From a virus (taxonomy: Duplodnaviria > Heunggongvirae > Uroviricota > Caudoviricetes), in the IMG/VR virus record IMGVR_UViG_2671181127_000002: a stretch of 19,238 bases of DNA. One strand, 5' to 3'. Position 1 is the first letter of the stretch. Every line of letters begins with the position of its first letter. The notes under the pieces were generated by a model. The model worked only from the letters and a program-made list of their open reading frames with translations. It was not told the origin of the DNA and made no database searches. Shown piece by piece: positions 217 to 13,957 of the stretch. The position numbers and the translations under genes were made by a program.

Positions 217-852
217 ATGAATAAACAATACGAACTGGTTGTTAAAGGGATAAATAATTACCCGGATAAGATTACTGTTACTGTGGCACTGGAAATTGCC
301 GGGCAGCCGTCGTTGTTGTCGCCATATGTGGCGATTAGTCTTGACCGTACTGAAGGTGCCACGCTGGAATTTTACGAAGCTGAGGCGAAAAAACAGGCGA
401 AGCAGTTTTTCATGGATATTGCTGCCGCTTTATGTGAAGGGGATGAGCAGTCGCCGGAAAAGCGCCCCATAATTTTAGAGGCGCAGGATGTGTTGATAAC
501 CTACAGAGGAAAACTACCGGGAATAATTACTGGTTCTCTGAAGACGCCACCGACGGCATTGCGGTCAAAAAACGATGATATTGAATCACGCATTGAAAAA
601 CTGGAGTGCTATATCGCTGAATTGAAAAAAAGCACCCCAACAAAAAATGAGGTGCTTGCAGCAGATGAAATGAAAGAAACTATTCTTGATCGCGCGGCGC
701 ATCTAAGCTGCGCTTCACGGTTGAAAGAGCATCTTCAGCGGCCTGAAGAAAAACGCCGCGATGAGCAGTTCGCGGCGTTTTACGATTATTGCATTGAAGT
801 TACTCGCAGGAATTTTGTGAAGGCTTTTGAGGAGAGTAAATCTCTTCAGTAA
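217..852 (+). CDS. Hypothetical protein (211 aa), cargo gene inserted between holin and endolysin
   Basis: Intact ORF whose ATG is 3 nt after the holin stop (TAG 211..213), with a GGGGAGAG Shine-Dalgarno-like sequence upstream. It is AT-richer than the flanking phage genes. There is no signal peptide or TM segment; the C-terminal half is charged and helical. I recognise no family. Confidence 0.6.
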   Translation: MNKQYELVVKGINNYPDKITVTVALEIAGQPSLLSPYVAISLDRTEGATLEFYEAEAKKQAKQFFMDIAAALCEGDEQSPEKRPIILEAQDVLITYRGKLPGIITGSLKTPPTALRSKNDDIESRIEKLECYIAELKKSTPTKNEVLAADEMKETILDRAAHLSCASRLKEHLQRPEEKRRDEQFAAFYDYCIEVTRRNFVKAFEESKSLQ

Positions 853-2839: not shown

Positions 2840-3388
2840 ATGAACTATCCGACGATTGTTGACGGTATTGATTTTCGCCAACTGGTAACAGCGGCAGATG
2901 GCGAACCAATAACAGACTCTTTTCAGATCGCTAAGGCGTTTGGTAAGCGTCATGCGGACGTATTGAGGGCGCTGAAAAATTGCCATTGCTCTGAAGATTT
3001 CCGGAGAGCGCATTTTTGCGTTGCCGAAAAAATCAATGAGTTAGGGATTTTCGACAAGAAGCAGATTTACTACCGCATGGACTTTAGCGGCTTCGTTATG
3101 CTGGTTATGGGATTTAACGGGGCAAAAGCTGATGCCGTTAAAGAAGCCTATATTAATGCCTTTAACTGGATGTCCGCTGAACTCCGTAAGTTCAGTGAAA
3201 GTTATGAAGCTGAACGCAACGCTGTAATGCTGGAGTACATGAAAGAGAAAGATGTTGCCAGTATGTCAGGTCGTTTGCTCAATCGCTGGGGCAGGGTGAA
3301 GAAGCCTCAGTTGCTGGCAAGGCTGGACAGGCTGGAGCAGCAGGGGCAGATTGCGTTACCCGGATTTGATAAAGGCATTTCAGCCTGA
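2840..3388 (+). CDS. rha: Rha-family phage regulatory protein (Phage_pRha-like N-terminal domain), often annotated as antirepressor-like
   Basis: The N-terminal region carries the signature I associate with Phage_pRha/Ant N-terminal domains (VTDSFQIAKAFGKRHADVLRALKN). It is AT-richer than the structural genes and sits between Rz and cos, where lambda carries bor. Confidence 0.7.
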   Translation: MNYPTIVDGIDFRQLVTAADGEPITDSFQIAKAFGKRHADVLRALKNCHCSEDFRRAHFCVAEKINELGIFDKKQIYYRMDFSGFVMLVMGFNGAKADAVKEAYINAFNWMSAELRKFSESYEAERNAVMLEYMKEKDVASMSGRLLNRWGRVKKPQLLARLDRLEQQGQIALPGFDKGISA

Positions 3389-3639
3389 CATAGCCATGCG
3401 CCGTATCGTCGCCGTATTCCTGCATTAACAGAGACCGCAGCCCGACAGGGAGACTCCTCTGCGCGAGTGTGCGGGGATAATCAAAAACGATGCACACCGG
3501 GGTTTACCGCGTTAACGGAGCGCGGCGTTGTCCCCTCATAGTCGCTCGTCCGGTGCGATGGTGGAAGAAACTGGATTTTGTTGCAACTGATAACCATTAT
3601 CATTTTCTCGGGTCCTTTCCGGCATATGGACCCGTTACG

Positions 3640-3651
3640 GGGCGGCGACCT
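3640..3651 (+). other. cosN: cosN cohesive-end site (GGGCGGCGACCT), internal to the prophage
   Basis: The 12-nt lambda cohesive-end sequence is present exactly, in lambda-like context (GTTACG before it, CGCGGGTTTTCGCTATTTATGAAAATTTTCCGG after it), about 195 bp upstream of the Nu1 start. Confidence 0.85.
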
Positions 3652-3688
3652 CGCGGGTTTTCGCTATTTATGAAAATTTTCCGGGATC

Positions 3689-3787
3689 CATGTCCGGTTT
3701 ATCTTCAAGTTAACTATATGAAAAATATAAAAACATGCTTTCCATGAACCGGACATGCGCAAAAAATAGACACTAAAACCGGACATG
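3689..3787 (+). promoter_or_regulatory. cosB: cosB-like region: three copies of AACCGGACATG arranged as R3 (inverted), an AT-rich IHF-like spacer, then R2 and R1 (direct)
   Basis: The motif occurs inverted at 3689..3699 and direct at 3747..3757 and 3777..3787. An AT-rich stretch lies between the first and second copies. Offsets from cosN and from the Nu1 start mirror lambda's R3-I1-R2-R1 layout, but the repeat sequence is not lambda's. Confidence 0.55.
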
Positions 3788-3834: not shown

Positions 3835-4344
3835 GTGGCTACGCAGACTGAAGTTGCCAGGCATTTAAGTCTGACCGATCGCCAGCTTCGCAGATTGCAG
3901 AAATTGCCGGGTGCCCCGATATCGAATAAGCGAGGGCAACTGGATCTGGATGCCTGGCGCGATTTTTACATATCGTATCTGAGAAGAAGTAAAAACGATG
4001 TGCCTGATGGCGATAGCGAAGACGACTATGAGGAGAAATTGCTTATTGCCAGATGGGAACTGACAGCAGAACAGGCTGTTACACAGCAGTTAAAAAATGA
4101 GGTGTCAAAAGGAAAACTTATTGACACCGGGTTCTGTATTTTTGCCCTCAGCAAGCTGGCAATGGCGTTATCCAGTACGCTTGATTCCATCCCTTTATCC
4201 ATGCAGCGACAGTTTCCTGATTTAACACCGCGCCATCTTGACCATCTGAAAACCCTTATTGCGAAGGGGGCAAATCAGTGTGCGCGGGCGGGGGATAAAT
4301 TACCGGATTTACTCGATGAATATATCAGAGCAACAACTGAATAA
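3835..4344 (+). CDS. nu1: Terminase small subunit (gpNu1-like)
   Basis: GTG start preceded by GAGGTGAGGA. The C-terminal two-thirds matches lambda Nu1 as I recall it (FCIFALSKLA...LSMQRQFPDL..RHLDHLK....LPDLLDEYI). The N-terminal DNA-binding region is divergent, consistent with the altered cosB repeats. Confidence 0.9.
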   Translation: MATQTEVARHLSLTDRQLRRLQKLPGAPISNKRGQLDLDAWRDFYISYLRRSKNDVPDGDSEDDYEEKLLIARWELTAEQAVTQQLKNEVSKGKLIDTGFCIFALSKLAMALSSTLDSIPLSMQRQFPDLTPRHLDHLKTLIAKGANQCARAGDKLPDLLDEYIRATTE

Positions 4345-6244
4345 TATGATGAGTGCTGTCACAACAGCATTACAGCCCCTGATAAGGGCATTGCCGGTGA
4401 CGCCAGTTGAATGGGCTGATCAAAATTATTATCTGCCTAAAGAATCTTCATATGGTGAGGGAGAATGGAAAACGCTGCCGTTCCAGATCGCCATCATGAA
4501 CAGCATGGGGAATGATCAGATCCGCACTGTTAATCTGATTAAATCTGCCCGTGTTGGCTATACAAAGATGTTGCTGGGAGTCGCCGGGTATTTTATTGAG
4601 CATAAATCCCGAAACAGTCTGCTTTTTCAGCCCACGGATTCTGCCGCTGAAGATTTTATGAAGTCTCACGTGGAGGCGACGATTCGCGATGTTCCCTGCC
4701 TGAAAAAACTTTCTCCCTAGCTGGGACGTAAACATCGTGATAATACCATCACGCTGAAACGCTTTTCATCGGGTGTGGGCTTCTGGTGCCTGGGCGGCGC
4801 TGCCGCCAAAAACTACCGTGAAAAATCAGTGGATGTGGTCTGCTATGACGAACTTTCCTCATTCGAGCCGGATGTCGAAAAAGAGGGCTCGCCAACCCTG
4901 CTGGGGGATAAGCGTATTGAGGGCTCGGTATGGCCAAAATCCATTCGCGGCTCGACGCCAAAAATAAAAGGCTCCTGCCAGATCGAAAAAGCGGCCAACG
5001 AGTCGGCACATTTCATGCGTTTTTATGTGCCCTGCCCGCACTGTGGGGAGGAGCAGTATCTGAAATTTGGCGATGAGTCCACGCCTTTTGGCCTTAAATG
5101 GGAGAAGGACAGTCCCGAAAGTGTTTTCTACCTCTGTGAACATCATGGCTGCGTGATCCATCAGTCTGAACTGGACCAGAGCAACGGGCGGTGGATCTGT
5201 GAAAACACGGGGATGTGGACCCGCGACGGTCTGACGTTTTTCAGCGCCGCGGATAATGAAATTCCGCCGCCGCGCTCCATCACATTCCATATCTGGACGG
5301 CGTACAGTCCGTTCACCACCTGGGTACAGATTGTCTATGACTGGCTGGATGCACTGAAAGATCCCAACGGCCTGAAAACCTTTGTGAACACCACGCTGGG
5401 CGAGACCTGGGAAGAGGCCGTGGGCGAAAAACTCGATCACCAGGTGCTGATGGATAAGGTTGTGCGTTACACGGCTGCGGTGCCTTCCCGGGTGGTTTAT
5501 CTGACGGCGGGCATTGACTCGCAGCGAAACCGTTTTGAGATGTATGTCTGGGGATGGGCTCCGGGAGAGGAAGCCTTTCTGGTGGATAAAATCATCATTA
5601 TGGGGCGTCCCGATGAGGAAGAGACGCTGTTACGTGTGGATGTGGCGATCAACAAAAAATACCGCCATGCAGACGGAACCGAAATGACCATTTCCCGTGT
5701 CTGCTGGGACACCGGGGGGATCGATGGCGAAATTGTCTATCAGAGGTCAAAAAAACACGGTGTTTTCCGGGTGCTGCCGGTAAAAGGTGCATCTGTTTAT
5801 GGCAAGCCGGTGATCACCATGCCAAAAACCCGCAATCAGCGGGGCGTGTATCTGTGCGAAGTGGGGACGGACACCGCAAAAGAAATTCTCTATGCCCGTA
5901 TGAAAGCCGATCCCACGCCTGCGGATGAAGCCACGTCGTATGCCATCCGTTTTCCTGATGATCCGGAGATTTTTTCGCAGACAGAGGCGCAGCAACTGGT
6001 GGCGGAAGAGCTTGTGGAGAAGTGGGAAAAAGGAAAGATGCGTCTGCTGTGGGATAACAAAAAGCGGCGTAACGAAGCGCTGGACTGCCTGGTGTATGCC
6101 TACGCGGCATTACGTGTGTCCGTGCAACGCTGGCAACTTGATCTGGCTGTACTGGCAAAATCCCGGGAAGAAGAGACGACCCGGCCAACCCTTAAAGAAC
6201 TGGCAGCGAAGCTGTCCGGAGGAGTGAATGGTTACAGTCGCTGA
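4316..6244 (+). pseudogene. A: Terminase large subunit (gpA-like) interrupted by an in-frame TAG at 4718..4720
   Basis: Lambda-gpA-like sequence starts at ATG 4316 (MNISEQQ...VEWADQNYYLPKES...), 29 nt before the Nu1 stop. It continues in the same frame straight after the TAG (LGRKHRDNTITLKRFSSGVGFWCLGGAAAKNYREKSVD...) to the stop at 6242..6244. The TAG aligns with a Trp in my recollection of lambda gpA, so TGG to TAG. The ORF track splits this into 4259..4720 and 4775..6244, both in the same frame. Confidence 0.8.
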
Positions 6245-6434
6245 ACTGCAGGCGCTGCGTCAGGCGCGCCTTGATTTATTAACCGGTAAACGGGTGGTGT
6301 CTGTCCAGAAAGATGGTCGCAGAATTGAATATACGGCGGCCTCTCTGGATGAGCTTAACCGGGCGATCAATGATGCTGAGTTGGTACTGGGGACAACCCG
6401 CCGTCGCCGTCGTCCGCTGGGAGTGAGGTTATGA
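6228..6434 (+). CDS. W: Head-tail joining protein gpW-like
   Basis: 68 aa with strong similarity to lambda gpW (LLTGKRVVSVQKDGRRIEYTAASL). Its stop overlaps the portal start as ATGA. Confidence 0.9.
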   Translation: MVTVAELQALRQARLDLLTGKRVVSVQKDGRRIEYTAASLDELNRAINDAELVLGTTRRRRRPLGVRL

Positions 6435-8023
6435 AACGAAAGCCTGTCCTGATTGATGTGAACGGCGTTCCGCTTCGGGAGAGTCTCAGCTACAACGGGG
6501 GCGGTGCAGGATTTGGCGGGCAAATGGCAGAGTGGTTGCCACCCTCGCAGAGTGCCGATGCGGCCCTGCTGCCCGCGTTGCGTCTGGGGAATGCCCGTGC
6601 AGATGATCTGGTGCGCAATAACGGAATAGCGGCCAATGCGGTGGCCCTGCATAAGGATCACATTGTCGGGCATATGTTTCTGATTAGCTACCGTCCGAAC
6701 TGGCGCTGGCTGGGGATGCGGGAGACCGCGGCAAAAAGTTTTGTCGATGAGGTGGAGGCGGCCTGGTCAGAATACGCAGAAGGGATGTTTGGTGAGATCG
6801 ACGTGGAAGGGAAACGCACGTTTACGGAATTTATCCGTGAAGGTGTGGGCGTTCATGCGTTTAACGGCGAAATCTTTGTGCAGCCGGTCTGGGATACGGA
6901 GAGCACGCAACTGTTTCGTACGCGTTTTAAAGCCGTGAGTCGGAAACGGGTGGACACGCCAGGACACGGTATCGGGAACCGTTTTCTGCGGGCCGGGGTG
7001 GAGGTTGATCGATATGGCCGTGCCGTTGCGTACCATATCTGTGAGGATGATTTTCCTCGCTCCGGGAGTGGACGATGGGAACGGATCCCGCGTGAACTTC
7101 CCACCGGGCGTCCGGCCATGCTGCATATTTTCGAGCCGGTGGAGGACGGGCAGACCCGTGGGGCCAACCAGTTTTACAGCGTCATGGAACGGCTGAAGAT
7201 GCTCGATTCCCTGCAGGCAACACAGCTTCAGTCGGCCATTGTTAAAGCCATGTATGCAGCGACGATTGAAAGTGAACTTGATACCGAAAAGGCCTTTGAA
7301 TATATCGCCGGTGCGCCGCAGGGGCAGAAGGATAATCCGCTTATTAATATTCTGGATAAGTTCTCCACCTGGTATGACACGAATAGCGTGACGCTGGGCG
7401 GTGTCAAAATTCCGCACCTTTTCCCCGGTGATGATCTGAAACTTCAGACCGCGCAGGATTCAGACAATGGATTTTCGGCGCTTGAACAGGCGCTGCTGCG
7501 GTATATCGCTGCCGGTCTTGGCGTTTCCTACGAACAGTTGTCCCGTGATTACTCGAAGGTCAGTTATTCAAGTGCCCGCGCATCCGCCAATGAGTCGTGG
7601 CGCTATTTTATGGGGCGGCGAAAATTTATTGCGTCCCGGCTGGCCACGCAGATGTTTTCCTGCTGGCTGGAAGAGGCACTTCTTCGGGGGATTATTCGTC
7701 CGCCACGGGCACGTTTTGATTTTTATCAGGCGCGTTCAGCCTGGTCACGGGCTGAGTGGATTGGTGCCGGAAGAATGGCCATTGACGGGCTCAAGGAGGT
7801 TCAGGAATCGGTGATGCGTATTGATTCCGGACTGAGCACGTATGAGAAAGAGCTGGCGCTGATGGGCGAGGATTATCAGGACATTTTCCGCCAGCAGGTC
7901 AGGGAATCTGCAGAGCGGGAAAAAGCCGGACTCTCACGTCCGGTGTGGATAGCGCAGGCGTATCAGCAGCAGATAGCGGAGAGTCGCAGGCCGGAAGAGG
8001 AGACAACACCACGTGAGACGTAA
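6431..8023 (+). CDS. B: Portal protein gpB-like
   Basis: 530 aa at the lambda gpB position, immediately after W. Size and order match. Confidence 0.9.
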   Translation: MKRKPVLIDVNGVPLRESLSYNGGGAGFGGQMAEWLPPSQSADAALLPALRLGNARADDLVRNNGIAANAVALHKDHIVGHMFLISYRPNWRWLGMRETAAKSFVDEVEAAWSEYAEGMFGEIDVEGKRTFTEFIREGVGVHAFNGEIFVQPVWDTESTQLFRTRFKAVSRKRVDTPGHGIGNRFLRAGVEVDRYGRAVAYHICEDDFPRSGSGRWERIPRELPTGRPAMLHIFEPVEDGQTRGANQFYSVMERLKMLDSLQATQLQSAIVKAMYAATIESELDTEKAFEYIAGAPQGQKDNPLINILDKFSTWYDTNSVTLGGVKIPHLFPGDDLKLQTAQDSDNGFSALEQALLRYIAAGLGVSYEQLSRDYSKVSYSSARASANESWRYFMGRRKFIASRLATQMFSCWLEEALLRGIIRPPRARFDFYQARSAWSRAEWIGAGRMAIDGLKEVQESVMRIDSGLSTYEKELALMGEDYQDIFRQQVRESAEREKAGLSRPVWIAQAYQQQIAESRRPEEETTPRET

Positions 8024-9959: not shown

Positions 9960-10988
9960 ATGGGATTGTTTACGACCCGCCAGTTACTCGGTTATACCGA
10001 ACAAAAAGTGAAATTCCGTGCGCTGTTTCTGGAGCTGTTTTTCCGCCGTACGGTGAATTTCCACACCGAAGAGGTGATGCTGGACAAAATTACCGGAAAA
10101 ACGCCGGTGGCAGCCTATGTCTCCCCGGTTGTTGAAGGAAAAGTGCTGCGTCATCGTGGTGGTGAAACCCGCGTGTTACGTCCGGGCTACGTCAAGCCGA
10201 AACACGAATTTAATTACCAGCAGGCGGTGGAGCGCCTTCCCGGTGAAGATCCGGCGCAGCTGAACGACCCGACCTACCGTCGTCTGCGTATCATCACCGA
10301 TAACCTCAAACAGGAAGAGCACGCCATTGTCCAGGTGGAAGAAATGCAGGCGGTGAATGCCGTGCTGTATGGCAAATACACCATGGAAGGGGATCAGTTT
10401 GATACTGTCGAGGTGGATTTCGCGCGCTCTGAAGGAAATAACATTGAGCAGGCTGACGGTAAAAAATGGTCTGAGCAGGACCGTGATACGTTTGATCCGA
10501 CGCATGATATTGACCTCTACTGCGATCAGGCCAGCGGCCTTGTGAATATCGCCATTATGGACGGTACGGTCTGGCGTCTGCTGAATGGCTTTAAGCTGTT
10601 CCGCGAAAAACTGGATACCCGTCGCGGCTCAAATTCACAACTCGAAACGGCAGTGAAAGACCTGGGGGCGGTGGTGTCCTTCAAGGGGTATTACGGCGAT
10701 CTGGCCATTGTGGTGGCGAAAACGTCTTATGTGGCAGAGGACGGTACCGAAAAACGTTATCTGCCGGAGGGCACACTGGTCCTGGGGAATACGGCAGCAG
10801 AGGGCATTCGTTGCTATGGTGCCATTCAGGATGCGCAGGCGTTGTCCGAAGGTGTGGTGGCCTCTTCCCGTTATCCGAAACACTGGCTGACTGTGGGCGA
10901 TCCGGCCCGTGAATTCACCATGACGCAGTCCGCTCCGCTGATGGTGCTGCCGGATCCGGATGAGTTTGTGGTGGTACAGGTGAAATAA
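9960..10988 (+). CDS. E: Major capsid protein gpE-like
   Basis: 342 aa with extensive similarity to lambda gpE (PGYVKPKHE, EEMQAV.AVL.GKYTM, DTRRGSNS.LETAVKDLG, GDPAREFTM.QSAPLM). Confidence 0.95.
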   Translation: MGLFTTRQLLGYTEQKVKFRALFLELFFRRTVNFHTEEVMLDKITGKTPVAAYVSPVVEGKVLRHRGGETRVLRPGYVKPKHEFNYQQAVERLPGEDPAQLNDPTYRRLRIITDNLKQEEHAIVQVEEMQAVNAVLYGKYTMEGDQFDTVEVDFARSEGNNIEQADGKKWSEQDRDTFDPTHDIDLYCDQASGLVNIAIMDGTVWRLLNGFKLFREKLDTRRGSNSQLETAVKDLGAVVSFKGYYGDLAIVVAKTSYVAEDGTEKRYLPEGTLVLGNTAAEGIRCYGAIQDAQALSEGVVASSRYPKHWLTVGDPAREFTMTQSAPLMVLPDPDEFVVVQVK

Positions 10989-11784: not shown

Positions 11785-12360
11785 ATGGCGATAAAAGGGC
11801 TTGATCAGGCGATTGATAATCTGAGCCGGGTTCGTAAAAACGCCATTCCGGCGGCTTCAGCAATGACGATTAACCGCGTGGCCACAACGGCGATTAATCA
11901 GTCTTCATCACAGGTTGCCCGGGAGACAAAGGTACGCCGGAAACTGGTTAAGGAACGGTCCAGACTGAAACGGGCCACGGTCAGAAATCCGAATGCAAAA
12001 ATTATCGTTAACCGCGGTGATCTCCCTGTGATTAAGCTGGGGATCAGAATGCTGGGGCGTCGTCCGGACAGCATACTCAAAGCCGGTCAGCATCGTTATC
12101 AGCGGGCATTTATCCAGCGATTAAATAATGGGCGCTGGCATGTTATGCAACGTCTTCCCCAGGCCAGATATGAGGAGGGCAATGACGACAAGGGAAGGAA
12201 AAAGCGTAATCGCCTTCCCATTCAGGTGGTGAAAATCCCGATGGCGGCCCCACTGAAACAGGCATTTGATGAGAATGTTGACCGTATCCGGCGTGAACGC
12301 CTGCCTAAAGAACTGGCATACGCGCTGAAACAACAACTGAGGATTGCGATAAAACGATGA
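11785..12360 (+). CDS. Z: Tail completion protein gpZ-like
   Basis: Starts MAIKGL as lambda Z does. Shares ARETKVRRKLVKER.RLKRATV, NRGDLPVIKLG and RIRRERLPKEL. Its stop overlaps the U start as ATGA. Confidence 0.9.
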   Translation: MAIKGLDQAIDNLSRVRKNAIPAASAMTINRVATTAINQSSSQVARETKVRRKLVKERSRLKRATVRNPNAKIIVNRGDLPVIKLGIRMLGRRPDSILKAGQHRYQRAFIQRLNNGRWHVMQRLPQARYEEGNDDKGRKKRNRLPIQVVKIPMAAPLKQAFDENVDRIRRERLPKELAYALKQQLRIAIKR

Positions 12361-13525: not shown

Positions 13526-13957
13526 ATGTTTCTGAAAACAGAACAATTTGAATATAACGGTGTATCCGTCATGCTTTCTGAGCTGTCTGCGCTGCAGCGT
13601 ATTGAGCATCTTGCCCTCCTGAAACGGCGGGCAGAAGAGGCTGAAGCCAGCGGCAACCTGCAGGTGAGTGTGGAAGATCTTGTCAGAACCGGCGCGTTTC
13701 TGGTGGCGATGTCCCTGTGGCATAACCATCCACAGAAAACGCAGTCACCGTCAATGAATGAGGCCGTGATGAAGATAGAGCAGGAAGTGCTCACCACCTG
13801 GCCTGCCGATGCCATTGCCCGGGCGGAAGAGGTGGTGTTACGTCTGTCCGGGATGAGCGGGGCTGTTCATGCGGATACTGACAGCACCGAAGTGGCGAAA
13901 AATAACGCGCTTACTGATGATGATTTTTCTGCGGGAAAGTTTTCGACGGCGAGCTGA
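13526..13957 (+). CDS. G: Tail assembly chaperone gpG-like
   Basis: Starts MFLKTE as lambda G does. Shares LSELSALQRIEHLAL.KR and GAFLVAMSLWHNHPQKTQ.PSMNEAV. The slippery heptamer lies near its 3' end. Confidence 0.9.
   Translation: MFLKTEQFEYNGVSVMLSELSALQRIEHLALLKRRAEEAEASGNLQVSVEDLVRTGAFLVAMSLWHNHPQKTQSPSMNEAVMKIEQEVLTTWPADAIARAEEVVLRLSGMSGAVHADTDSTEVAKNNALTDDDFSAGKFSTAS

What the first reader, a model, noticed from the sequence alone, without database searches (positions are those of the whole stretch)
4316..6244. In-frame amber codon splits the large terminase gene
gpA-like sequence is continuous in one frame across the TAG at 4718..4720; the residues right after the stop still align with lambda gpA. 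The stop sits where I recall a Trp in lambda, so a single TGG to TAG change explains it. Without suppression only an N-terminal fragment of about 134 aa would be made, leaving an otherwise intact-looking late region unable to package DNA. The alternatives are a sequencing error, or partial expression by amber read-through or a suppressor tRNA.
Basis: seen in the sequence. Interest (0 to 1): 0.65.

Follow-up and report, generated by a model that had tools for sequence, protein, structure and literature searches.

The report
Amber stop in prophage terminase gene
A lambda-like prophage of E. coli carries a real one-base change that turns a tryptophan codon of its DNA-packaging enzyme into a stop codon; this is ordinary prophage decay, though the same change has arisen at least three separate times at a known kind of mutation-prone methylation site.

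Summary
ATG 4316 to TGA 6244 is one frame of 642 codons encoding a lambda gpA-type large terminase. It is interrupted only by TAG at 4718-4720 (codon 135), which aligns with Trp135 of lambda gpA.

All 170 relatives examined have TGG there. None of 46 further relative contigs, 40 of them covering the whole gene, has an internal stop.

The stop is not an artefact private to one assembly. Three public read-set assemblies carry it inside contigs, on three different gene backgrounds. Two of those alleles differ from an intact E. coli allele by that single G-to-A change; the window's allele is 3 nt from its nearest intact allele. That means at least three independent mutations.

The ancestral sequence CCTGG (4716-4720) is a Dcm methylation site. 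G4719 pairs with the methylated cytosine, so G-to-A is the classic 5-methylcytosine deamination product. This origin is inferred, and my rate tests were only partly supportive.

The stop falls between Walker A and Walker B, so the 134-aa product cannot work. All other late genes and cos are intact.

Verdict: a young, packaging-defective prophage. It could be rescued only in trans, by reversion or by an amber suppressor. Low interest.

The parts
3640..3651 (+). cosN cohesive-end sequence GGGCGGCGACCT, identical to lambda's, about 185 nt upstream of the small-terminase start
   Evidence: Exact match. Sequence read.
3835..4344 (+). Small terminase subunit (Nu1 type, 169 aa), intact. Its end overlaps the start of the large-subunit gene.
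   Evidence: 100% identical over 169 aa to WP_000235436.1 of STEC2018-607. Pfam Phage_Nu1 on the orthologous contigs.
4316..4720 (+). N-terminal fragment of the large terminase (134 codons plus TAG). This is all that can be translated without suppression.
   Evidence: Pfam GpA_ATPase profile positions 4-89 only.
4541..4564 (+). Walker A / P-loop KSARVGYT (codons 76-83), upstream of the stop
   Evidence: Aligned with lambda gpA KSARVGYS 76-83.
4716..4720 (.). Former Dcm site. It reads CCTAG here and CCTGG in all intact relatives. Position 4719 (A here, G ancestrally) pairs with the cytosine that Dcm methylates on the minus strand.
   Evidence: The motif logic follows from the established Dcm specificity CCWGG, internal C (PMC3527292, PMC13250602).
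4718..4720 (+). In-frame amber codon (codon 135), derived from TGG (Trp)
4721..6244 (+). Remainder of the large-terminase frame (codons 136-642 plus TGA), still uninterrupted. Gene callers report it as a 489-aa ORF from GTG 4775.
   Evidence: Pfam GpA_ATPase profile positions 116-247 and GpA_nuclease.
4835..4852 (+). Walker B VVCYDE (codons 174-179), downstream of the stop
   Evidence: Aligned with lambda gpA VAGYDE 174-179.
5282..6118 (+). Endonuclease domain (codons 323-601), downstream of the stop
   Evidence: Pfam PF20454, 240 bits.
6228..8023 (+). Intact gpW-like head-tail joining gene (6228-6434) and portal gene (6431-8023), showing that the neighbourhood has not decayed
   Evidence: Full-length matches at 100% and 99.6% to the STEC2018-607 proteins, with no stops.

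Best explanation
This is a recent loss-of-function point mutation in the large terminase gene of an otherwise intact lambda-like (phage 21-type head) prophage of E. coli. What is shown: the ancestral codon was TGG inside a CCTGG motif, and a single G-to-A transition at 4719 produced TAG. What is inferred: in the lysogen Dcm methylates the internal cytosine on the opposite strand, that 5-methylcytosine deaminates to thymine, and the T:G mismatch escapes very-short-patch repair, which fixes the change. This would explain why the same change arose independently in at least three prophage lineages. Translation ends after 134 residues, keeping the Nu1-binding end and Walker A but losing Walker B, the rest of the ATPase, the nuclease and the portal-binding tail. 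By inference from lambda A amber mutants, an induced prophage would make proheads and tails and lyse the cell, but could neither cut cos nor package its own DNA. Rescue would need a compatible terminase from a co-resident prophage, reversion or recombination with a TGG copy (which Vsr repair would favour), or an amber-suppressor host.
For: The stop, its frame and the Trp135 alignment are established. TGG is present in the three closest relatives. It is also present in all 124 places with this local sequence in 5426 complete E. coli genomes and in 46 further metagenome and IMG/VR contigs. None of those 46 has an internal stop, and 40 of them cover the whole gene. TAG lies inside contigs from three sequencing runs. 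The L005 allele equals the NCTC9112 allele plus only G404A, and the L006 allele equals the HY220605 allele plus only G404A, while the TAG alleles differ from each other by 11-43 nt. The mutated base is the partner of the Dcm-methylated C of CCTGG; only 4 of the 59 possible GC-to-AT routes to a stop in this gene are such positions. CCWGG is a documented GC-to-AT hotspot in E. coli (PMC13250602, PMC3527292). In exact look-ups of the products expected from stops at comparable non-Dcm codons, 99, 105, 157 and 206 were absent and 222 was only a contig-end 'partial', against three internal TAG alleles at codon 135. All three events are TAG, not TGA, although both would give the same 134-aa product. 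All other late genes are full length and cos is present. The ATPase domain is split.
Against: The Dcm origin is inferred from context; methylation of this site in these hosts was not observed. The other three Dcm sites that would give amber codons (336, 365, 376) showed no verified internal-stop alleles: only two single contigs that look like contig-end partials, though from smaller samples. None of the 8 silent Dcm-transition positions is polymorphic among 37 alleles, against 62 of 375 other silent GC-to-AT positions (P=0.36, low power), so there is no independent sign of raised mutability. My search for TAG alleles was conditioned on the 134-aa product, so the comparison with other sites is crude. 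No experiment shows that the prophage is packaging-defective, and the host's suppressor status and other prophages are unknown.
Confidence: 0.78

Rival explanations
1. Sequencing or assembly error: the true sequence is TGG and the gene is intact.
For: A single-base difference is the commonest kind of error. Dcm motifs are known trouble spots for nanopore base-calling (own knowledge). The reads of the window's source could not be inspected.
Against: The same TAG sits inside contigs of three other runs, on three different backgrounds. The window keeps 44 intact CCWGG sites, and 4716 is the only site showing a deamination-type change relative to its relatives. The window and L004 agree at 9975 of 9976 bases, including the TAG.
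Confidence: 0.03
2. The gene is still expressed at useful levels, because the host carries an amber-suppressor tRNA or because UAG is read through often enough. The prophage would then be conditionally or weakly viable rather than dead.
For: The downstream 507 codons are still open and 99.8% identical to functional alleles. The stop is followed by C and preceded by Pro, a context reported to terminate poorly (own knowledge, not tested). Amber suppressors exist in some natural coliforms (own knowledge).
Against: An open downstream frame is equally expected for a very young mutation, since each TAG allele is 1-3 nt from an intact one. None of 170 relatives conserves the stop. The window holds no tRNA gene. 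Lambda A amber mutants are conditional lethals in non-suppressing hosts (established knowledge). Trp135 is conserved between this protein and lambda gpA at 65% overall identity, so an inserted Gln, Tyr or Ser may not restore function.
Confidence: 0.07
3. There was a single origin. One TAG allele arose once and was moved onto other terminase backgrounds by short-tract recombination between lambdoid prophages, rather than by repeated mutation.
For: Lambdoid phages are highly mosaic, and E. coli genomes carry a median of 2 copies of related terminase genes.
Against: In L006 the transferred tract would have to fit between polymorphisms at codons 106 and 145, which is under about 120 nt. In L005 it would have to fit between codons 70 and 171. 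Both would have to leave no other change in 1929 nt. Nothing selects for spreading a null allele. Vsr repair converts such heteroduplexes towards CCTGG, not away from it (established knowledge).
Confidence: 0.05
4. The recurrence reflects selection rather than mutation bias: lysogens gain from disarming packaging, for example through prophage domestication or a dominant-negative N-terminal fragment that blocks related superinfecting phages.
For: Three independent hits fall at one codon, while comparable control codons show none. The 134-aa fragment keeps the region that binds the small subunit in lambda (own knowledge).
Against: The allele is rare: 0 of 170 relatives. Each instance is very young. 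Late genes are silent in a lysogen, so the fragment would not be made before induction. Killing terminase does not spare the induced cell. The Dcm context explains this exact base without any selection.
Confidence: 0.05

Closest known systems
Lambda gene A amber (sus) mutants such as Aam11 and Aam32 (Campbell's conditional lethals; own knowledge)
   Same: An in-frame UAG in the large terminase gene of a lambdoid phage. The expected phenotype is proheads, tails and uncut concatemers, with no infectious particles unless the host suppresses amber.
   Different: Those are laboratory mutants selected after mutagenesis in lambda itself. This one is a natural allele in a phage 21-type or CP-933O-type terminase only 65% identical to gpA. 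Lambda has no Dcm site at this codon: it reads CCGTGG.
5-methylcytosine amber hotspots at CCAGG in lacI (Coulondre and Miller 1978) and the lambda cI am6 site used by Lieb to define very-short-patch repair (own knowledge; general hotspot statement in PMC13250602 and PMC3527292)
   Same: A transition at the internal cytosine of CCWGG creates an amber codon and recurs independently.
   Different: The classic cases are CAG to TAG on the coding strand. Here the methylated C is on the non-coding strand, so the coding change is TGG to TAG. The rate excess is shown experimentally for lacI, but here it is inferred from context plus three natural recurrences.
Defective lambdoid prophages of E. coli O157 Sakai, especially Sp4, which lacks an intact terminase (PMC2669165)
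   Same: A lambdoid prophage with a single lesion in its packaging enzyme and otherwise usable late genes. Sp4 DNA was nevertheless packaged, most likely by the terminase of Sp14, which has a near-identical cos.
   Different: Sp4 is hit in nu1 by an IS element, whereas here a point nonsense mutation hits the large subunit. Whether this host carries a compatible helper prophage is unknown.
Intact orthologues: the terminase of plaque-forming phages PhiR12_1/2/4/5 (PV340549 and others) and of prophages in E. coli 2015C-3121, NCTC9112 and HY220605
   Same: 99.6-99.9% nucleotide identity over the whole gene, with the same Nu1-A-W-portal order.
   Different: They read TGG at codon 135.

Membership tests
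Lambda gpA-type large terminase (Pfam GpA_ATPase PF05876 + GpA_nuclease PF20454) | N-terminal gpA ATPase domain above the gathering score | tested here: met
   187 bits against a cut-off of 25.6 on the read-through protein. The hit is split 69 + 101 bits across the stop.
Lambda gpA-type large terminase (Pfam GpA_ATPase PF05876 + GpA_nuclease PF20454) | C-terminal gpA endonuclease domain | tested here: met
   PF20454, 240 bits, residues 323-601.
Lambda gpA-type large terminase (Pfam GpA_ATPase PF05876 + GpA_nuclease PF20454) | Walker A and Walker B motifs colinear with lambda gpA | tested here: met
   KSARVGYT at 76-83 and VVCYDE at 174-179, at the same positions as in lambda.
Lambda gpA-type large terminase (Pfam GpA_ATPase PF05876 + GpA_nuclease PF20454) | cos - Nu1 - A - W - portal gene order | tested here: met
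Lambda gpA-type large terminase (Pfam GpA_ATPase PF05876 + GpA_nuclease PF20454) | Uninterrupted reading frame of about 641 codons, that is, a functional gene | tested here: not met
   TAG at codon 135. By descent it is a member, but as a pseudogene.
Dcm (5-methylcytosine) deamination hotspot mutation | Ancestral sequence is CCWGG | tested here: met
   CCTGG at 4716-4720 in every intact relative.
Dcm (5-methylcytosine) deamination hotspot mutation | The change is C to T at the internal cytosine (G to A when read on the other strand) | tested here: met
   G4719A. G4719 pairs with the internal C of the minus-strand CCAGG.
Dcm (5-methylcytosine) deamination hotspot mutation | Independent recurrence of the identical change | tested here: met
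   Three backgrounds. Two are a single step from a different intact allele, and the window's is 3 nt from its nearest.
Dcm (5-methylcytosine) deamination hotspot mutation | Rate excess over comparable non-methylated sites | tested here: inconclusive
   Control codons 99, 105, 157, 206 and 222 gave no internal-stop alleles, against 3 at codon 135. But the other Dcm-amber sites gave no verified alleles, and 0 of 8 silent Dcm positions are polymorphic.
Dcm (5-methylcytosine) deamination hotspot mutation | The host has active Dcm and the site is methylated | not testable with these tools
   Only 19 kb of prophage is available. The close relatives are all E. coli, a species that generally carries dcm-vsr (own knowledge).
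Programmed stop-codon read-through or recoding | The stop codon is conserved among relatives | tested here: not met
   0 of 124 places in complete genomes and 0 of 46 metagenome and viral contigs carry it.
Suppressor-dependent (sus/amber) conditional phage | Growth only in an amber-suppressing host | not testable with these tools
   No tRNA gene in the window; the host genome was not available.

The most novel reading that the evidence does not exclude
Codon 135 of this terminase family acts as a slow, methylation-driven toggle. Dcm-dependent deamination would repeatedly disarm packaging in lysogens, and Vsr-biased repair during recombination with a TGG homologue would preferentially re-arm it. 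A measurable fraction of 'intact-looking' lambdoid prophages in E. coli would then cycle through a packaging-dead state set by the host's own methylation system.
Probability: 0.1. Interest if true: 0.45.

Novelty: new member of a known kind. Interest (0 to 1): 0.2.

Why it matters
For annotation, this prophage should be called packaging-defective with a terminase pseudogene, despite a late region that otherwise looks perfect. Tools that score prophage 'intactness' by gene content would misjudge it.

More generally, it is a clean natural example of how the first disabling hit in a prophage can come from the host's own cytosine methylation. It also shows that the same hit recurs, which matters when shared pseudogene alleles are used as markers of common descent. 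It does not open a new question about terminase or about recoding.

Tried and rejected
**Exact DNA scans.** Scans for the TAG-bearing sequence in genome contigs, viral contigs and metagenome contigs found nothing. The degenerate pattern later found 46 contigs, all with TGG, and none in the species-representative genomes.

**Source of the window.** It is not among complete E. coli genomes or GenBank phages; the best matches are 99.8% for the gene and 98.4% for the window.

**Restricted look-up.** I therefore could not check whether the 56-aa, 335-aa and 364-aa products come from real internal stops or from contig ends.

**Hotspot tests.**
- Exact look-ups of hypothetical truncated products were supportive for codon 135 against control codons.
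- They were uninformative for the other three Dcm-amber sites.
- Silent-site polymorphism at Dcm positions gave no support: 0 of 8, at low power.

**Methylation base-calling artefact.** Rejected, because no other Dcm site in the window carries a deamination-type change.

**Restart or fragment complementation.** Rejected by inference. The first in-frame start after the stop is GTG 4775 (codon 154), without a convincing ribosome-binding site. Its product lacks Walker A, and residues 135-153 of the ATPase core would be missing.

**Other dead ends.**
- Literature searches for the PhiR12 phages and for lambda A amber mutants in the held library found nothing useful.
- No solved structure matches by sequence.

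Full report
**1. The observation**

The window reads ...TCT CCC TAG CTG GGA... with TAG at 4718-4720. Counting from ATG 4316, this is codon 135. The same frame continues without another stop to TGA 6242-6244, 642 codons in all. The mechanical ORF list shows the two pieces as 4259..4720 and 4775..6244.

A Pfam scan of the read-through protein finds GpA_ATPase (residues 48-293, 187 bits) and GpA_nuclease (323-601, 240 bits). The ATPase profile is cut by the stop into positions 4-89 and 116-247.

A global alignment with lambda gpA gives 417 identities in 642 columns. It puts the stop opposite lambda Trp135, between Walker A (KSARVGYT, 76-83) and Walker B (VVCYDE, 174-179).

**2. What relatives have at this position**

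- The gene is 99.6-99.8% identical to terminase genes of prophages in E. coli 2015C-3121 and STEC2018-607, and of the PhiR12 phages deposited with K-12 or E. coli C named as host. All read TGG.
- The window differs from the 2015C-3121 allele at three bases only: one silent change, one Ser/Phe change, and G4719A.
- A 61-mer centred on the stop matches 124 places in 120 of 5426 complete E. coli genomes, none of them perfectly, so none carries TAG.
- A degenerate scan (T-R-R at the codon) recovered 26 metagenome and 20 IMG/VR contigs. All have TGG and none has an internal stop; 40 of them cover the whole gene.

TAG is therefore derived and rare, and the gene is normally kept intact.

**3. Is the stop real?**

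An exact look-up of the 134-aa product found three Logan assemblies of public runs in which TAG lies inside the contig and is followed by the 489-aa remainder:

- L004 (ERR10711874) matches the window at 9975 of 9976 bases, so it is the same prophage.
- L005 (SRR21910832) is 98.7% identical over 8.6 kb.
- L006 (SRR29077526) is 96.2% identical over 7.6 kb.

The window retains 44 CCWGG sites. Compared with six relatives, 4716 is the only site showing a deamination-type change. A methylation-related base-calling artefact would not be confined to one site. I could not inspect reads.

**4. Independent origins**

Within the gene, the TAG alleles differ from one another at 11, 38 and 43 positions, almost all silent and on both sides of the stop. 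Two of them have an intact partner that differs by exactly one base:

- L006 equals the allele of E. coli HY220605 plus G404A.
- L005 equals the allele of NCTC9112 plus G404A.

The window's allele is three bases from 2015C-3121. The simplest reading is three separate G-to-A mutations.

A single origin spread by recombination would need conversion tracts shorter than about 120 nt (L006) and about 300 nt (L005) that left no other trace. No force favours spreading a null allele in that way.

**5. Why this base?**

The ancestral sequence at 4716-4720 is CCTGG, the recognition site of the E. coli Dcm methylase. Dcm methylates the internal cytosine on both strands. The cytosine methylated on the minus strand pairs with G4719. 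Its deamination to thymine, if not corrected by very-short-patch repair, gives A at 4719 on the plus strand, which is exactly the change seen. CCWGG is a documented hotspot for GC-to-AT transitions in E. coli (PMC13250602, PMC3527292). Amber hotspots of this kind are classical for lacI and lambda cI (my own knowledge).

The gene has six CCWGG sites, and four of the twelve possible deamination products create amber codons (135, 336, 365, 376). These are 4 of the 59 GC-to-AT routes to a stop in the gene.

**6. Testing the hotspot idea**

I ran three tests within the limits of the tools.

*Control codons.* I asked whether the exact products expected from stops at comparable non-Dcm codons exist in the 15-billion-protein collection.
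- Codons 99, 105, 157 and 206 are absent.
- Codons 222, 51 and 68 appear only as NCBI 'partial' entries, meaning contig ends.
- Codon 57 is present in NCBI and Logan, but I could not verify it.
- Background lengths of 133 and 135 aa give one partial entry and none.
- Against this stand three independent internal TAG alleles at codon 135. All three are TAG and none is TGA, although either would give the same product.
- I set aside the index case and treated the seven control routes of codons 99-222 plus the TGA route at codon 135 as equally likely. The chance that both further events fall on the Dcm route is then about (1/9)^2, roughly 0.01. This is a crude figure.

*Other Dcm-amber sites.* These gave nothing verifiable. 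A 335-aa product occurs on one 1577-bp ENA contig, a 364-aa product is flagged 'partial' by NCBI, and no 375-aa product was found. The neighbouring controls of 326 and 342 aa were also absent. The usable sample is smaller there, because only 16-18 of 49 alleles share each prefix.

*Silent polymorphism.* None of the eight silent Dcm-transition positions is polymorphic among 37 distinct alleles, against 62 of 375 other silent GC-to-AT positions (P=0.36). This gives no support. Power is low, one position was fixed by my search pattern, and Vsr-biased repair would erase such variants.

On balance the context and the recurrence make the Dcm origin the best explanation. It remains an inference, and I put it at about 0.7.

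**7. Consequence**

Everything else needed for a lambda-type late region is present and full length when compared with the STEC2018-607 prophage. That covers lysozyme, Rz, Nu1, W, portal, protease/scaffold, D, E, FI, FII, Z, U, V, G, T, H, M, L and K. The holin and I genes are cut by the window's two ends. The only in-frame stop is in the terminase. The lambda cohesive-end sequence GGGCGGCGACCT lies at 3640-3651, at the lambda-like distance upstream of Nu1.

The 134-aa product keeps Walker A but lacks Walker B, the nuclease and the C-terminal end. The first in-frame start after the stop is GTG 4775 (codon 154), which would give a protein without Walker A. By analogy with lambda A amber mutants (established knowledge), the prophage should still lyse its host and make proheads and tails, but should not cut cos or fill heads by itself.

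Three escape routes remain open:
- a compatible terminase from another prophage; related terminase genes occur at a median of two places per E. coli genome, and Sp4 of O157 Sakai was packaged that way (PMC2669165);
- restoration by recombination with a TGG copy;
- an amber-suppressor host.

The window holds no tRNA gene.

**8. Comparison with known things, and verdict**

By descent the gene is a member of the gpA terminase family, but it fails the test of an intact frame, so it is a pseudogene. The lesion meets three of the five criteria of a Dcm deamination hotspot mutation (motif, base and direction, recurrence). One criterion was inconclusive (rate excess) and one was untestable (methylation in the host). 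It is not programmed recoding, because no relative conserves the stop.

Nonsense decay of prophage genes and 5-methylcytosine amber hotspots are both textbook phenomena. This is a new natural instance that combines them. I score interest at 0.2.

Noticed in passing
L007 (ends at window 4716), L008 (4717), L009 (4719), plus one similar place not shown: Four contigs from other assemblies, probably metagenome-derived, end within 4 nt of the mutated base and so also yield a 134-aa product. The neighbouring lengths 133 and 135 aa have one and no entries. This may be chance. Alternatively, assemblies may break here because TAG and TGG copies coexist in those samples.
   Followed up: partly
window 2840-3388: A Rha-family regulator ORF (182 aa) between the lysis genes and cos is open in the window, but annotated as frameshifted in the closest whole-window relative, STEC2018-607.
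   Followed up: partly
window 217-852: The YdfR/DUF1327-type ORF after the holin is 211 aa here. The STEC2018-607 copy is annotated as a partial pseudogene, and PhiR12_2_star has a 169-aa version.
   Followed up: no
window 11785-12360: The tail protein Z homologue is 191 aa, with a 14-residue insertion relative to the 177-aa protein of STEC2018-607 and PhiR12. L004 has the same 191-aa form.
   Followed up: no
window 13933-13939: The lambda-type slippery heptamer GGGAAAG lies just before the stop of the G homologue (13955-13957), as expected for the programmed -1 frameshift that makes G-T.
   Followed up: no
window 3490-3747: An 85-aa ORF in the mechanical list spans the cos site (3640-3651). 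It is probably not a gene.
   Followed up: no
protein P0013 (STF39204.1), on a 5.37-Mb E. coli contig: A 215-aa 'terminase large subunit of prophage CP-933O' sits in the same fragment cluster but comes from a complete chromosome. Other truncated alleles of this terminase therefore exist at other positions. Its lesion was not examined.
   Followed up: no
terminase gene, 37 distinct alleles (window 4316-6244 and loci L001-L060): None of the eight silent positions where Dcm-site deamination would be neutral is polymorphic, against 16.5% of other silent GC-to-AT positions. This could fit Vsr-biased repair preserving CCWGG, but the difference is not significant.
   Followed up: partly
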